NCBI GenBank assembly: GCA_963665165.1
Contig: OY761989.1
Span: forward strand, 679,976 to 743,975
Reading direction: 5' to 3'
DNA from: Arenicellales bacterium
Lineage (GTDB): Bacteria > Pseudomonadota > Gammaproteobacteria > Arenicellales > Poriferihabitantaceae
DNA length: 64,000 nucleotides
Part shown: positions 40,304 to 42,563 of the stretch, piece by piece
Position numbering within the stretch: position 1 is the first letter of the stretch
Layout: each line of letters opens with the position of its first letter
Translations under genes and position numbers: made by a program
Notes under the pieces: model-generated
Seen by the model: only the letters and a program-made list of their open reading frames with translations
Told to the model about the DNA's origin: nothing
The model's database searches: none

Positions 40304-40332
40304 AAAATGGGGGCGGGTTGTGATCTTTCAAG
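40304..40332 (-). promoter_or_regulatory. Sigma-32 (heat-shock) promoter of htpG
   Basis: The minus strand reads CTTGAAA-N-CCCCCATTTT. There are 14 nt between CTTGAA and CCCCAT, about 30 nt upstream of the htpG ATG. This matches the RpoH consensus CTTGAA-N13-15-CCCCATNT. Confidence 0.6.
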
Positions 40333-40370
40333 CGATTTTACGCGGTTCTCTTGCCTGAAGTTGATAATGA

Positions 40371-40399
40371 TTGACCTGAAGGGCCATAATTCGTATATT
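40371..40399 (+). promoter_or_regulatory. Sigma-70 promoter of the tRNA operon
   Basis: TTGACC-17 nt-TATATT followed by a GC-rich discriminator (CCGCAGG), about 30 nt upstream of tRNA-Pro. Confidence 0.5.
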
Positions 40400-40432
40400 C
40401 CGCAGGCTTTGCAGGTATGATGCAAAAGAACA

Positions 40433-40509
40433 CGGGGTATAGCGCAGTCTGGTAGCGCGCCTGCTTTGGGAGCAGGATGTCGGGAGTTCAAATCTCTCTA
40501 CCCCGACCA
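40433..40509 (+). tRNA. tRNA-Pro (anticodon UGG)
   Basis: 77-nt cloverleaf CGGGGTA...TACCCCGACCA. The anticodon loop is TTTGGGA. TTCAAAT T-loop and encoded CCA. Confidence 0.9.
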
Positions 40510-40528
40510 GTTTTCCGTTTTGTCCGTT

Positions 40529-40927
40529 GCGCCCGTAGCTCAACCGGATAGAGCAACGGCCTTTAAGCTTCATTCTGGCATTTGGCCACAGGGTTTTGTG
40601 CAGAGTGGAACCGGGAGCCTTCGGAAGGAACAAGTAACTTTCGAAGTGGAGGGCACTGTATCGGTGGAACCTTAACGCAGGCGGGTCACGAAGTTGTGTC
40701 TGTGGTCCGTCCGGCGATGGCAATACCGAGGAAACCCGATTCGATCTGTTAGAATCGGACCGGGGATCCGTAGAGACTATACGTGCCCCGCCTGAAATGG
40801 CGAAGATATAGTCCAGACTCCAAACCCGGCGGGTTGGTTGGTACACCCTCAACTCTCCGGGGCGGTGAAAACCGTAGTGGGTAAGCTAAGCCGTAGGTTA
40901 CAGGTTCGAATCCTGTCGGGCGCGCCA
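40529..40927 (+). tRNA. tRNA-Arg (anticodon UCU) interrupted by a 322-nt intron between nt 34 and 35
   Basis: Exon 1 is 40529-40563 and exon 2 is 40886-40927. They join to a 77-nt cloverleaf with acceptor GCGCCCG/CGGGCGC, anticodon arm ACGGC-CUUCUAA-GCCGU and an encoded CCA. The anticodon arm is near-identical to E. coli argU as recalled. Confidence 0.85.
40564..40885 (+). ncRNA. Group I intron (ORF-less; subgroup not determined)
   Basis: Preceded by U and ends in G. R-like GTAGAGACTATACG and S-like AAGATATAGTCC elements. P7 is GACTATA (40775-81) / TATAGTC (40807-13). P3 is GGGCAC (40651-56) / GTGCCC (40783-88). P8 is the hairpin CGCC-TGAAAT-GGCG (40789-40802). Confidence 0.8.
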
Positions 40928-40974
40928 TTTATGGCCATAACGATTTTCGTTCAGGGTGTTTTTTACAGGTTTGT

Positions 40975-41051
40975 GGTGAGCGTAGCTCAGTTGGTAGAGC
41001 CCCGGATTGTGATTCCGGTCGTCGTGGGTTCGAGTCCCATCGTTCACCCCA
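40975..41051 (+). tRNA. tRNA-His (anticodon GUG)
   Basis: Encoded G-1. GGTGAGCGTAGCTCAGTTGGTAGAGC...; anticodon loop TTGTGAT; encoded CCA. Confidence 0.9.
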
Positions 41052-41079
41052 TTTAATAGTGAAACTGCGAACAGGAACT

Positions 41080-41164
<85 letters not shown>

Positions 41165-41240: not shown

Positions 41241-42563
41241 ATGCAGGTTTCCGTTGAAGAGTCTGGCGCTATCGAGCGAAAACTTGCCATTTGCGTACCG
41301 TCTGACGAGATTGAATCAGAGGTATCCAAACGACTGCACGATGCTGCCAGAAAGACGCGCATTCCGGGTTTCAGGCCCGGCAAGGCGCCCTTGCGTATTA
41401 TCCGGCAACGATATGCTCCCGGGATTACCAACGAGGTCGTGATGGAGACCATCCAGTCGAGTTACGACGCCGCGCTGCAGCAGCAGGAGATTGTTCCGGC
41501 CGGGCTGCTTTCGATTGATCCTGTACCGTATGAGTCAGGCAATGACCTGGAGTTCGTCGCGACCATAGAAGTCTTTCCGTCCATTCCTTCACTGGACCTG
41601 GACGGGGTGACCATCCGTAAACCGGTAGTCGAGGTGACCGGGCAGGACGTGGACAATACGATGGAGGATATTCGCCTGCGTCATGCGGATAATTATGCCG
41701 CCAGACAGGGAAAATCGGAAAAAGGCGACAAGCTGACGGTCGATTTTGAAGGAAAAATAGAGGGTGAGAGCTTTGAAGGGGGAGCAGTACAAGGGCATTC
41801 CTTCATCCTCGGCAACCGGGAGATGCCGGAAGAGTTTGAAAACGGGCTTGTCGGTGTCGTCCGGGATGAAGTCAGCGTGATTTCCGTTTCGTATCCGGAG
41901 ATCTACAATATTCCCGTTCTGGCTGGCAAGGAGGTCGAATATACGATCACGACCAAAGCGATAGAGCAACCGGAATTGCCCGAACTCGATGATGAGTTCG
42001 CCAAAAAAATGGGGGTCGATGAGGGTGGTATGGAAAAATTGCGGGAGGAGGTGAAAAACAATCTGGCGCGTGAACTGGATGAGCGTTTGCGGGGTGTGAT
42101 TCACCAAAGGGTCATGGACGGGCTGCTGCAGAAAAACGAAATCGAAGTGCCGAAATCACTGGTCGAAAATGAAATTGACCATTCGGTGCGAAGGCTTGAA
42201 CAGTACATGGCGGCCCAGGGCCTGCCGGCGGGTGAAGTCAATCGGGATCTTTACGTGGACGAAGCGAAGAGGCGGGTTGCCCTGAGTCTGATCGTCAAGG
42301 CGATTATTGACAAGGAGGTGATTCAGGTGGACCCGGAAGCGGTCAAGGCGAGGGTGACCAGGCTGGCGGCCAGCTATGAGCAGCCGGAAGCCTTTGTAAG
42401 CCATTTCATGTCGGACCCCGAACAGGCGAAGAGGATCGAAGCGGTCATGTTCGAAGAACAGGTTGTGGAAACGATGCTGGAAACGGCGACCGTTGAAGAG
42501 GAAAAACTCTCACTTCGGGAATTCATGAACGAGCAGGATTCTGGCGCCAGAACCGGAGCCTGA
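41241..42563 (+). CDS. tig: Trigger factor
   Basis: 440 aa. 'MQVSVEESGAIERKLAICVP...GFRPGKAP' and the position upstream of clpP-clpX. Confidence 0.95.
   Translation: MQVSVEESGAIERKLAICVPSDEIESEVSKRLHDAARKTRIPGFRPGKAPLRIIRQRYAPGITNEVVMETIQSSYDAALQQQEIVPAGLLSIDPVPYESGNDLEFVATIEVFPSIPSLDLDGVTIRKPVVEVTGQDVDNTMEDIRLRHADNYAARQGKSEKGDKLTVDFEGKIEGESFEGGAVQGHSFILGNREMPEEFENGLVGVVRDEVSVISVSYPEIYNIPVLAGKEVEYTITTKAIEQPELPELDDEFAKKMGVDEGGMEKLREEVKNNLARELDERLRGVIHQRVMDGLLQKNEIEVPKSLVENEIDHSVRRLEQYMAAQGLPAGEVNRDLYVDEAKRRVALSLIVKAIIDKEVIQVDPEAVKARVTRLAASYEQPEAFVSHFMSDPEQAKRIEAVMFEEQVVETMLETATVEEEKLSLREFMNEQDSGARTGA

What the first reader, a model, noticed from the sequence alone, without database searches (positions are those of the whole stretch)
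40529..40927. Group I intron splitting the tRNA-Arg(UCU) gene of the Pro-Arg-His-Leu tRNA operon
The segments 40529-40563 and 40886-40927 form a canonical 77-nt tRNA only when joined. The acceptor is GCGCCCG/CGGGCGC, the loop is CUUCUAA, and the anticodon arm is almost identical to E. coli argU as I recall it. The split is unique: the 5' flank supplies CUU and the 3' flank supplies CUAA, which places a 322-nt insert between U34 and C35.

The insert follows a U and ends in G. It contains textbook group I core elements in the correct order:
- P3 GGGCAC / GUGCCC
- R-like GUAGAGACUAUACG
- P8 hairpin CGCC-UGAAAU-GGCG
- S-like AAGAUAUAGUCC, giving a 7-bp P7

It has no ORF. The bacterial tRNA group I introns I know of are in tRNA-Leu(UAA) and tRNA-fMet of cyanobacteria, tRNA-Arg(CCU) of alpha-proteobacteria and tRNA-Ile(CAU) of Azoarcus. 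I am not aware of one in tRNA-Arg(UCU) in a gammaproteobacterial-type context. The 34/35 position mirrors the cyanobacterial Leu(UAA) intron. If this is the only AGA decoder, splicing would be essential.
Basis: partly seen in the sequence, partly recalled or inferred. Interest (0 to 1): 0.8.

Follow-up and report, generated by a model that had tools for sequence, protein, structure and literature searches.

The report
Group I intron in tRNA-Arg(UCU)
The tRNA-Arg(UCU) gene in this window is interrupted by a 322-base self-splicing (group I) intron, but the same intron at the same site occurs in over a hundred other bacterial species and is already in the literature, so it is real but ordinary.

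Summary
Joining 40529-40563 to 40886-40927 gives a perfect 77-nt tRNA-Arg(UCU). The insert follows a U and ends in G.

The insert is a group I ribozyme:
- The Rfam model matches only weakly (24.4 bits, gathering score 50), which is typical of this family.
- A covariance model built from 22 relatives, window excluded, hits it once at 195.9 bits (E 1.6e-54) and ends exactly at the terminal G.
- Across 95 homologous introns, the P1-P9 fold with the P3/P7 pseudoknot is 98.2% paired. Compensatory changes occur in 21 pairs.

The novelty claim fails. One degenerate core pattern found the same intron at the same site in at least 109 species representatives: Arenicellales-type Gammaproteobacteria, Bacillus cereus group, Lysinibacillus, Exiguobacterium, Chitinophagaceae and Desulfonema. 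It was also found in phage contigs.

Interrupted tRNA-Arg(UCU) genes were reported in Beggiatoaceae (Flood 2016, citing MacGregor 2013). A 2026 survey tabulates them as "Arg(TCT) 34/35".

This copy has no homing endonuclease gene. It sits at a syntenic locus (htpG | Pro-Arg-His-Leu | tig) shared with sponge-symbiont relatives.

Self-splicing and sole-AGA-decoder status remain inferred.

The parts
40361..40399 (+). Two overlapping sigma-70-like promoter matches upstream of tRNA-Pro; candidate promoter of the Pro-Arg-His-Leu tRNA cluster
   Evidence: 10 of 12 matches each. This is a consensus match only.
40433..40509 (+). tRNA-Pro(UGG), first gene of the cluster
   Evidence: 68.5 bits.
40529..40563 (+). 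5' exon of tRNA-Arg(UCU): acceptor 5' strand, D arm with A20, anticodon stem 5' strand, C32 U33 U34
   Evidence: ARAGORN with introns allowed. The exon is nearly invariant in 38 gammaproteobacterial relatives.
40564..40885 (+). Group I (IC3-type) intron, 322 nt, no ORF; follows U34 and ends in the terminal G at 40885
   Evidence: Rfam Intron_gpI 24.4 bits, model positions 1-253; family model 195.9 bits, E 1.6e-54, ending at 40885; covariation across 95 homologues.
40561..40564 (+). P1 5' strand: exon C32 U33 U34 plus intron U+1. U34 forms the U-G wobble at the 5' splice site.
   Evidence: helix 1: CG, UA and UG are invariant in 95 sequences; the fourth pair is CG in 73 and UG in 21.
40569..40609 (+). 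Lineage-specific hairpin inserted in loop L1 (about 16 bp, irregular). Absent from most family members, which have L1 of 5-12 nt.
   Evidence: same hairpin in the MFE and centroid folds. L1 longer than 20 nt occurs only in gammaproteobacterial loci, with different sequences.
40613..40617 (+). Internal guide sequence GGGAG. G40615-A40616-G40617 pair with U34-U33-C32 (P1). G40614 and G40613 can pair with C35 and U36 of the 3' exon (P10: one G-C and one G-U pair).
   Evidence: GGAG is invariant in 95 of 95 sequences. The base before it is A in 91 of 95 and G here. P10 is inferred from the sequence only.
40619..40646 (+). P2 hairpin: 9 bp (CUUCGGAAG/CUUUCGAAG) with a 10-nt loop
   Evidence: helix 2: 6 of 9 pairs show compensatory changes.
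40651..40656 (+). P3 5' strand, GGGCAC
   Evidence: helix 3: 100% paired; 3 pairs show compensatory changes.
40661..40729 (+). P4 (UCGG/CCGA) enclosing P5. P5 has a tetraloop-receptor-like internal loop (CCUUAAC...GAUGG) and a lineage-specific extension of about 35 nt.
   Evidence: helices 4-6. The extension is shared only with L014, L018, L047 and L062. It folds as an 11-bp stem in the constrained fold.
40730..40769 (+). P6 (GGA/UCC) with the P6a hairpin. In other family members this is where the homing endonuclease ORF sits; here it is empty.
   Evidence: helix 7. PD-(D/E)XK ORFs in the 624-655 nt variants.
40773..40781 (+). P7 5' strand (G-A-GACUAUA) with a bulged A; contains the presumed guanosine-binding G-C pair. 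Part of the 'R' element.
   Evidence: helix 8 (bracketed as a pseudoknot with P3). The G-binding assignment is inferred by analogy with characterised group I introns.
40783..40788 (+). P3 3' strand, GUGCCC
   Evidence: helix 3.
40789..40802 (+). P8 hairpin, CGCC-UGAAAU-GGCG
   Evidence: helix 9: 100% paired; A-U in 81 sequences and G-C in 10 at the second pair.
40807..40814 (+). P7 3' strand, UAUAGUCC ('S' element)
   Evidence: helix 8.
40817..40882 (+). P9 domain: outer stem ACUCC/G(U)GGGU, variable P9a (40825-40861), and a GCGGU-GAAA-ACCGU hairpin (40862-40875) whose GAAA loop is invariant
   Evidence: helices 10 and 11: 4 of 5 pairs of the GAAA hairpin show compensatory changes.
40886..40927 (+). 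3' exon of tRNA-Arg(UCU): C35 U36 A37 A38, anticodon stem 3' strand, variable loop, T arm, acceptor 3' strand, and encoded CCA
40976..41164 (+). tRNA-His(GUG) 40976-41051 and tRNA-Leu(UAG) 41080-41164, the downstream genes of the cluster, followed by tig at 41241

Best explanation
A functional tRNA-Arg(UCU) gene, second in a Pro-Arg-His-Leu tRNA cluster between htpG and tig, is interrupted between U34 and C35 by a 322-nt group I intron of the IC3 type. The intron has no homing endonuclease gene.

1. The cluster is transcribed from a promoter upstream of tRNA-Pro.
2. The intron folds into the P1-P9 core with the P3/P7 pseudoknot.
3. The guide sequence GAG (40615-40617) pairs with C32-U33-U34, so U34 forms the U-G wobble at the 5' splice site.
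4. A free guanosine bound in P7 attacks that site.
5. The terminal G (40885) then replaces it, and the exons are ligated. They are held together mainly by the tRNA anticodon stem and a short P10 (C35 and U36 with G40614 and G40613).
6. The product is mature tRNA-Arg(UCU), which reads AGA codons.

**Origin.** This copy is a vertically inherited, immobile member of a widespread tRNA-Arg(UCU) 34/35 intron family. Other members carry a PD-(D/E)XK homing endonuclease, and some sit in phage tRNA genes.
For: **Shown here.**
- The exons join into a canonical tRNA-Arg(UCU). It is 85.7% identical to E. coli tRNA-Arg.
- Rfam Intron_gpI aligns over its full length, weakly.
- A family covariance model built without the window scores 195.9 bits, E 1.6e-54. 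It gives a single hit, ending at the terminal G.
- In 95 homologous introns the proposed helices are 98.2% paired, against 33-41% when the partners are slid. 21 pairs and 503 cells carry double changes, and 0 of 500 shuffles reach this.
- The window matches 138 of the 140 columns that are at least 90% conserved.
- The GAAA loop in P9 and the receptor-like loop in P5 are conserved.

**Evidence that the gene is in use.**
- Exons of intron-bearing relatives keep the cloverleaf through compensatory changes, for example acceptor C6-G67 to U6-A67, and T stem ACAGG/CCUGU to AGAGG/CCUCU.
- The gene sits where intronless relatives have their tRNA-Arg(UCU), in Pro-Arg-His clusters.
- AGA occurs 117 times in 47 ORFs of the window, including htpG, tig, clpP and clpX.

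**Evidence for vertical inheritance.** The same htpG | tRNA cluster | tig synteny, with the intron, is found in about 25 gammaproteobacterial MAGs whose HtpG is 51-76% identical.

**Published context.** PMC13011429 classes most of its listed Arg(TCT) 34/35 introns as IC3.
Against: - No experiment shows that this family, or this copy, self-splices. The splicing assays in PMC13011429 were on Patescibacteria Asn and Asp introns, not on Arg(UCU).
- P1 here is weak: 4 bp, 2 of them G-U. P10 is only 2 bp. The window has G where 91 of 95 relatives have A just 5' of the guide sequence.
- A 41-nt hairpin is inserted in L1, and its effect on docking is unknown.
- The Rfam score is below the gathering threshold.
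- Whether another, uninterrupted tRNA-Arg(UCU) exists elsewhere in the genome is unknown.
Confidence: 0.88

Rival explanations
1. The gene is a pseudogene. A tRNA-Arg(UCU) was inactivated by insertion of an intron that no longer splices, and AGA is read by another copy elsewhere in the genome.
For: Only 64 kb is available, so a second copy cannot be excluded. P1 and P10 are weaker than in most relatives. The Rfam score is low.
Against: - The ribozyme core matches 138 of 140 conserved columns and scores 195.9 bits on the family model.
- The exons are intact and include the encoded CCA.
- Across intron-bearing relatives, both the exons and the intron helices evolve by compensatory changes. That requires selection on the spliced tRNA and on the ribozyme.
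- The gene occupies the syntenic slot of the normal tRNA-Arg(UCU).
- In Beggiatoaceae, the interrupted gene was the only tRNA-Arg-TCT found (PMC4853749).
Confidence: 0.05
2. The insert is some other kind of element, such as a MITE, an IS fragment or a group II intron, or it is an assembly chimera that happens to lie in the anticodon loop.
For: Default ARAGORN and Rfam at the gathering threshold report nothing here.
Against: - Full-length alignment to the group I model.
- Strong covariation for the group I fold, including the P3/P7 pseudoknot.
- The U/G boundary rule holds in all 110 extracted family members.
- The same insert at the same site in independent assemblies from several phyla rules out a chimera.
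- There is a single copy in the window, unlike a MITE.
Confidence: 0.01
3. The intron is a recent horizontal arrival by homing or reverse splicing, for example from a phage tRNA gene, rather than an old vertically inherited resident.
For: - Family members occur in distant phyla and in phage contigs.
- Some carry a PD-(D/E)XK homing endonuclease.
- Intronless alleles with an identical anticodon arm are common.
- The correlation between intron and host divergence is only moderate (rho 0.39, p 0.05).
Against: - This copy has no endonuclease gene or visible remnant of one.
- Its nearest intron relatives are those of its nearest host relatives. L014 is 87.5% identical in the intron core and 76% in HtpG.
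- It shares clade-specific features with them: the L1 and P5 extensions and the GGAG-GGCAC P3 type.
- The Bacillota and Bacteroidota introns are the most distant, at 65-69%.
Confidence: 0.06

Closest known systems
tRNA-Arg(UCU) 34/35 group I introns. Listed as 'Arg (TCT) 34/35', mostly IC3, in Table S5 of Nakagawa et al. 2026 (PMC13011429). Interrupted tRNA-Arg-TCT genes were also reported in Beggiatoaceae by Flood et al. 2016 (PMC4853749), citing MacGregor et al. 2013.
   Same: - Same host gene, same insertion site (CUU | ... G | CUAA) and same guide sequence (GGAG).
- The same conserved core blocks: CCGUAGAGACUAUACGUG...CCUGAAAUGG.GAAGAUAUAGUCCAGAC and ...GAAA...GUAGUGGUAAG.
- The family covariance model scores 195.9 bits.
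   Different: - This copy comes from an unsampled Arenicellales-like gammaproteobacterium. The best match is Ca. Spongiihabitans, at 77.6% DNA identity over the locus.
- It has lineage-specific extensions in L1, P5 and P9.
- It has G instead of A just before the guide sequence.
- It has no endonuclease ORF and no remnants of one, unlike many Bacillota copies.
[quoted passage not shown] Anabaena), and the Lys(UUU) 34/35 introns of Actinomycetota listed in PMC13011429
   Same: - Same insertion position (34/35).
- Same 5' exon context CUU.
- Same general IC3 layout, with a GAAA loop in P9.
- Similar R and S core elements (sequences; PMC13011429 section 8).
   Different: - A different tRNA.
- The P4-P6 domain sequence differs: UAUCGGUGAAACCUUAAC...GGCAAUACCGAGGAAAC here, against CAAAxUCGGGGAAACC...GGCAAUCCCGAGCCAAGCC.
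- Self-splicing of the Leu intron is known to me from the older literature. The Arg(UCU) family has no assay that I could find.
Azoarcus tRNA-Ile(CAU) and alphaproteobacterial tRNA-Arg(CCU) group I introns (IC3)
   Same: Small IC3 ribozymes in bacterial tRNA anticodon loops. The short P1 relies on the tRNA anticodon stem to align the exons.
   Different: They are inserted at 36/37, not 34/35 (PMC13011429 section 8). The guide sequence and host tRNA differ. They were not compared at sequence level here.
PD-(D/E)XK homing-endonuclease-bearing tRNA introns (the tRNA-fMet intron of Cyanobacteriota; Arg(UCU) introns of Bacteroidota and Campylobacterota in PMC13011429)
   Same: The 624-655 nt members of the same Arg(UCU) family encode PF11645 endonucleases (E 3.7e-36).
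   Different: The window copy has no such ORF, so it has no evident means of DNA-level mobility.

Membership tests
Group I intron | 5' splice site follows a U that forms a U-G wobble in P1 with an internal guide sequence | tested here: met
   U34 (40563) pairs with G40615. The pair is UG in 95 of 95 family members, with flanking UA and CG pairs invariant (helix 1).
Group I intron | Intron ends in G (the terminal, omega G) | tested here: met
   G at 40885. All 110 extracted family members end in G. The family model alignment ends there.
Group I intron | Conserved core helices P3-P8, including the P3/P7 pseudoknot, supported by covariation | tested here: met
   98.2% of cells are paired and 21 pairs show compensatory changes. 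Slid controls give 33-41%.
Group I intron | Match to the Rfam Intron_gpI covariance model (RF00028) at the gathering score | tested here: not met
   24.4 bits against a gathering score of 50 (E 4.5e-4 in a 601-nt search). Among 8 relatives, only one reaches the gathering score (50.6 bits) and one other scores 27 bits. The failure therefore reflects the model: its 12 seed sequences include none from bacteria (Williams 2020).
Group I intron | Guanosine-dependent self-splicing | not testable with these tools
   Needs an in vitro GTP-dependent splicing assay or RT-PCR across the junction.
tRNA-Arg(UCU) 34/35 intron family (IC3-type) | Inserted between U34 and C35 of a tRNA-Arg(UCU) | tested here: met
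   The same CTT | ... G | CTAA architecture is found in 109 genome loci.
tRNA-Arg(UCU) 34/35 intron family (IC3-type) | Sequence and structure homology to other members | tested here: met
   Model R1, built from 22 members without the window, scores 195.9 bits, E 1.6e-54, over model positions 1-233. The window agrees at 138 of 140 conserved columns.
tRNA-Arg(UCU) 34/35 intron family (IC3-type) | IC3 subgroup assignment | not tested
   Taken from the subgroup column of Table S5 in PMC13011429: IC3 for most Arg(TCT) 34/35 rows and IB3 for two. No subgroup classifier was run here. The P2, the GAAA loop in L9 and the receptor-like P5 are consistent with IC3.
tRNA-Arg (isoacceptor UCU) | Canonical cloverleaf, anticodon UCU, and the arginine identity elements A20 and C35 (from my knowledge of E. 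coli tRNA-Arg identity) | tested here: met
   ARAGORN cloverleaf of the joined exons. The D loop AACCGGAUA places A at position 20, and C35 and U36 are present. The sequence is 85.7% identical to annotated E. coli tRNA-Arg.
Mobile (homing) group I intron | Intron-encoded homing endonuclease | tested here: not met
   The longest ORF in the intron is 56 aa with no Pfam match. Long relatives encode PF11645.

The most novel reading that the evidence does not exclude
In this sponge-symbiont-related gammaproteobacterial clade, the intron-split gene may be the only AGA decoder. In that case the clade-specific peripheral additions (L1 hairpin, extended P5 and P9) could make splicing conditional, for example on GTP level, temperature or a protein partner. 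AGA decoding, and with it translation of AGA-containing genes, would then be tuned at the level of tRNA maturation.
Probability: 0.05. Interest if true: 0.5.

Novelty: new member of a known kind. Interest (0 to 1): 0.17.

Why it matters
The practical value is in annotation. Default tRNA finders and Rfam at its gathering score miss this gene, so the genome would wrongly appear to lack an AGA-reading tRNA. ARAGORN with introns allowed often misplaces the boundary by one base and reports a false tRNA-Ser(GCU).

Biologically, this adds one more host lineage to a widespread and already catalogued intron family. It also gives a clean example of long vertical retention of an endonuclease-free group I intron at a syntenic tRNA locus. 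It does not open a new question.

Tried and rejected
- **Rfam at the gathering threshold** found no intron. A permissive local search was needed.
- **Exact-protein lookup of Tig**, to identify the source contig, found nothing. The source species is not among the GTDB representatives: the best DNA match is 77.6%.
- **ARAGORN labels for relatives** (Ser(gct), SeC(tca), Leu(caa), Stop and others) were rejected as boundary artefacts. Re-extraction using the rule that the exon ends in U and the intron ends in G gave tRNA-Arg(UCU) in 109 loci.
- **The first constrained fold** mishandled P3/P7, because they form a pseudoknot. I switched to bracket types that allow pseudoknots.
- **A fixed-spacing core pattern** used the wrong spacer length and missed even the true site. 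It was replaced.
- **The intron-versus-HtpG divergence correlation** was only moderate (rho 0.39, p 0.05), so vertical inheritance rests mainly on synteny and shared clade-specific features.
- **The Pseudomonadota rows of Table S5** in PMC13011429 are truncated in the held copy. I could not check whether Arenicellales genomes are already listed there.
- **The TAAGCT repeat** at both intron ends (40564-69 and 40882-87) was considered as a possible target-site duplication and rejected. Relatives begin with CAAG, UGAG and other sequences, and group I homing makes no such duplications.
- **The 174-aa minus-strand ORF 40328-40852** was rejected as spurious, because it runs antisense through tRNA-Pro and the intron.

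Full report
**1. Observation.** The region reads as described. Default ARAGORN and Rfam at the gathering threshold find only tRNA-Pro (40433-40509), tRNA-His (40976-41051) and tRNA-Leu (41080-41164). Joining 40529-40563 to 40886-40927 gives a 77-nt sequence that ARAGORN folds as a canonical tRNA-Arg(tct) with encoded CCA. With introns allowed, ARAGORN reports tRNA-Arg(tct) with a 322-nt intron after nucleotide 35, between U34 and C35. The spliced sequence is 85.7% identical over its full length to annotated E. coli tRNA-Arg genes. The insert follows a U and ends in G at 40885.

**2. Is it a group I intron?** A permissive Rfam search of 40400-41000 aligns Intron_gpI over its full length (model 1-253, window 40586-40839), but at only 24.4 bits against a gathering score of 50 (E 4.5e-4 for that 601-nt search). 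This weakness belongs to the whole family. Among eight relatives searched together, only one reaches the gathering score (50.6 bits) and one other scores 27 bits. Williams 2020 notes that none of the 12 Rfam seed sequences are bacterial.

I therefore tested the fold directly.
- I aligned 95 distinct homologous introns (A1).
- I projected a P1-P9 structure from the window onto that alignment, with P7 in separate brackets because P3 and P7 form a pseudoknot.
- 98.2% of cells form standard pairs, against 33-41% when the partners are slid by 1-3 columns.
- 21 of 53 pairs carry changes on both sides (503 cells), and no shuffle out of 500 reaches any of the five measures.
- Compensatory changes are concentrated in P2, P3, P5, P8, P9 and the GAAA-capped P9 hairpin.
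- P4, P6 and most of P7 are invariant, so they neither support nor contradict the fold.

A covariance model built from 22 short relatives, with the window excluded (A2 and R1), finds one hit in the 64 kb window: 40605-40885, 195.9 bits, E 1.6e-54, covering model positions 1-233 and ending at the terminal G. The window agrees with the family at 138 of the 140 columns that are at least 90% conserved.

**3. Anatomy.**
- **P1** is C32-U33-U34-U(+1) paired with G40614-G-A-G40617. U34 pairs with G40615 as the splice-site wobble.
Most relatives have UAGGAG, which allows a 3-bp P10 (CUA/UAG); the window has CCGGGAG. As in other tRNA introns, the anticodon stem presumably does most of the exon alignment. 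That is inference.
- **L1** holds a 41-nt hairpin (40569-40609). Long L1 inserts occur only in the gammaproteobacterial members, and their sequences differ.
- **P5** carries a receptor-like internal loop, CCUUAAC...GAUGG. The P9 hairpin carries an invariant GAAA loop. Together these suggest the L9-P5 tertiary contact that I recall from the Azoarcus-type IC3 introns. That is a recollection and was not tested.
- **P5 and P9** are extended here relative to the 209-240 nt minimal forms.
- There is no ORF of note. The longest is 56 aa, with no Pfam match.

**4. Relatives.** In 109 of these loci I could extract the same architecture: a tRNA-Arg exon ending CTT, an intron ending in G, and a 3' exon starting CTAA.

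ARAGORN labelled many of them Ser(gct), SeC or Leu. These are boundary artefacts. Shifting the boundary by one base turns CUU|...G|CUAA into CU|...|GCUAA.

The hosts include about 40 Gammaproteobacteria (Arenicellales, Ca. Spongiihabitans, Poriferihabitaceae, Acidiferrobacterales). They also include the Bacillus cereus group, Lysinibacillus, Exiguobacterium, Sporosarcina, the Thermoactinomyces group, Chitinophagaceae and Desulfonema.

The nearest locus is Ca. Spongiihabitans (L014). It is 77.6% identical in DNA over the tRNA cluster and 87.5% in the intron core, with HtpG at 76% and Tig at 54%. It has the same htpG | Pro-Arg(intron)-His-Leu | tig order. About 25 further gammaproteobacterial MAGs, with HtpG 51-75% identical, share the htpG-adjacent intron-bearing cluster. 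This points to long vertical inheritance in that clade.

Intronless tRNA-Arg(UCU) genes with the identical anticodon arm are abundant in metagenomes. At least 70 of the 120 returned loci lie in Pro-Arg-His clusters. The intron is therefore present in some lineages and absent in others.

**5. Is the gene used?** Three lines of evidence suggest it is.
- Among intron-bearing gammaproteobacterial genes the exons are almost invariant. Where they differ, they keep the cloverleaf by compensatory changes in the acceptor and T stems.
- AGA occurs 117 times in 47 long ORFs of the window (6.9 per 1000 codons), including htpG, tig, clpP and clpX.
- Two promoter-like sites lie upstream of tRNA-Pro, and there are none inside the intron on the + strand.

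These argue against a pseudogene. They do not prove splicing, and they do not show that this is the only AGA decoder, because only 64 kb is available.

**6. Mobility of the family.** Family members of 624-655 nt encode a PD-(D/E)XK endonuclease (PF11645, E 3.7e-36) in the P6 region. This agrees with PMC13011429. Two IMG/VR contigs carry endonuclease-bearing copies in tRNA-Arg(UCU). A 484-kb uncultured phage (LR756508.1) has compact introns in both its tRNA-Lys(UUU) and its tRNA-Arg(UCU) genes. The window copy has no endonuclease, so it has no evident means of DNA-level mobility.

**7. Comparison with what is known.** The literature has since moved on.
- Flood et al. [quoted passage not shown] MacGregor et al. 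[quoted passage not shown]
- Williams 2020 raised the number of classes to 21.
- Nakagawa et al. 2026 list 'Arg (TCT) 34/35' introns, mostly IC3, in Bacillota, Bacteroidota and Desulfobacterota. They also report endonuclease-bearing ones in Bacteroidota and Campylobacterota. The printed sequences share the core blocks of the window intron.

The kind is therefore known, including in Gammaproteobacteria. What is new is only this host lineage and its peripheral extensions.

**8. Verdict.** This is a real group I intron in a functional-looking tRNA-Arg(UCU), and a new member of a known and widespread family. Self-splicing and essentiality are inferred, not shown. Interest is low.

Noticed in passing
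L006, L024, L026, L029, L035 and about 40 other genome loci: With introns allowed, ARAGORN often reports these split tRNA-Arg(UCU) genes as tRNA-Ser(gct), SeC(tca), Leu(caa), Gln, Glu, Pro or 'Stop'. It shifts the intron boundary by one or a few bases. Applying the rule that the exon ends in U and the intron ends in G restores Arg(UCU) in 109 loci.
   Followed up: yes
L242 (LR756508.1, 484-kb uncultured phage), locus positions 1066-1334 and 1465-1716: A huge phage carries adjacent tRNA-Lys(UUU) and tRNA-Arg(UCU) genes. Phage tRNA arrays may spread these introns between hosts.
   Followed up: partly
L240 (IMG/VR 194-kb contig) and L241 (44-kb contig): Viral contigs carry tRNA-Arg(UCU) split by introns of about 635 nt. 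The ORF looks intact in L240. In L241 it looks disrupted.
   Followed up: partly
A1 columns about 320-480; for example L010, L008 and L052 (Bacillus cereus group, 284-288 nt introns): Endonuclease-free Bacillota introns keep short stretches in P6 that resemble the start of the PD-(D/E)XK ORF (GAGATTnAGGnGnTTTnAAnG...). They look like deletion remnants of a lost homing endonuclease gene. The gammaproteobacterial copies, including the window, show no such remnant.
   Followed up: no
L031 (JBLHGU010000200.1, labelled Parasphingorhabdus sp. MAG): This contig is labelled as an alphaproteobacterium. However, it has the gammaproteobacterial htpG | Pro-Arg(intron)-His-Lys-Leu | tig arrangement, with HtpG 60% identical to the window's. 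It is probably mis-binned.
   Followed up: no
window 40564-40569 and 40882-40887: The hexamer TAAGCT occurs at both intron boundaries: the first six intron bases, and the last four intron bases plus the first two of the 3' exon. Relatives start with CAAG, UGAGCU and other sequences, so this is probably chance rather than a target duplication. As a side effect, the 5' exon plus the intron start (GGC CUUUAA GCU) could form a 3-bp mimic of the anticodon stem.
   Followed up: partly
window 40328-40852, minus strand: A 174-aa ORF with a TTG start runs antisense through tRNA-Pro, the 5' exon and most of the intron. It is almost certainly spurious, but an automatic gene caller could annotate it as a hypothetical protein.
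   Followed up: partly
L015 / L110 (Sporosarcina soli NZ_JBHSNO010000008.1): These two overlapping 8-kb loci show two separate intron-bearing tRNA-Arg(UCU) genes a few kb apart in one genome. Some hosts therefore carry more than one split copy.
   Followed up: no
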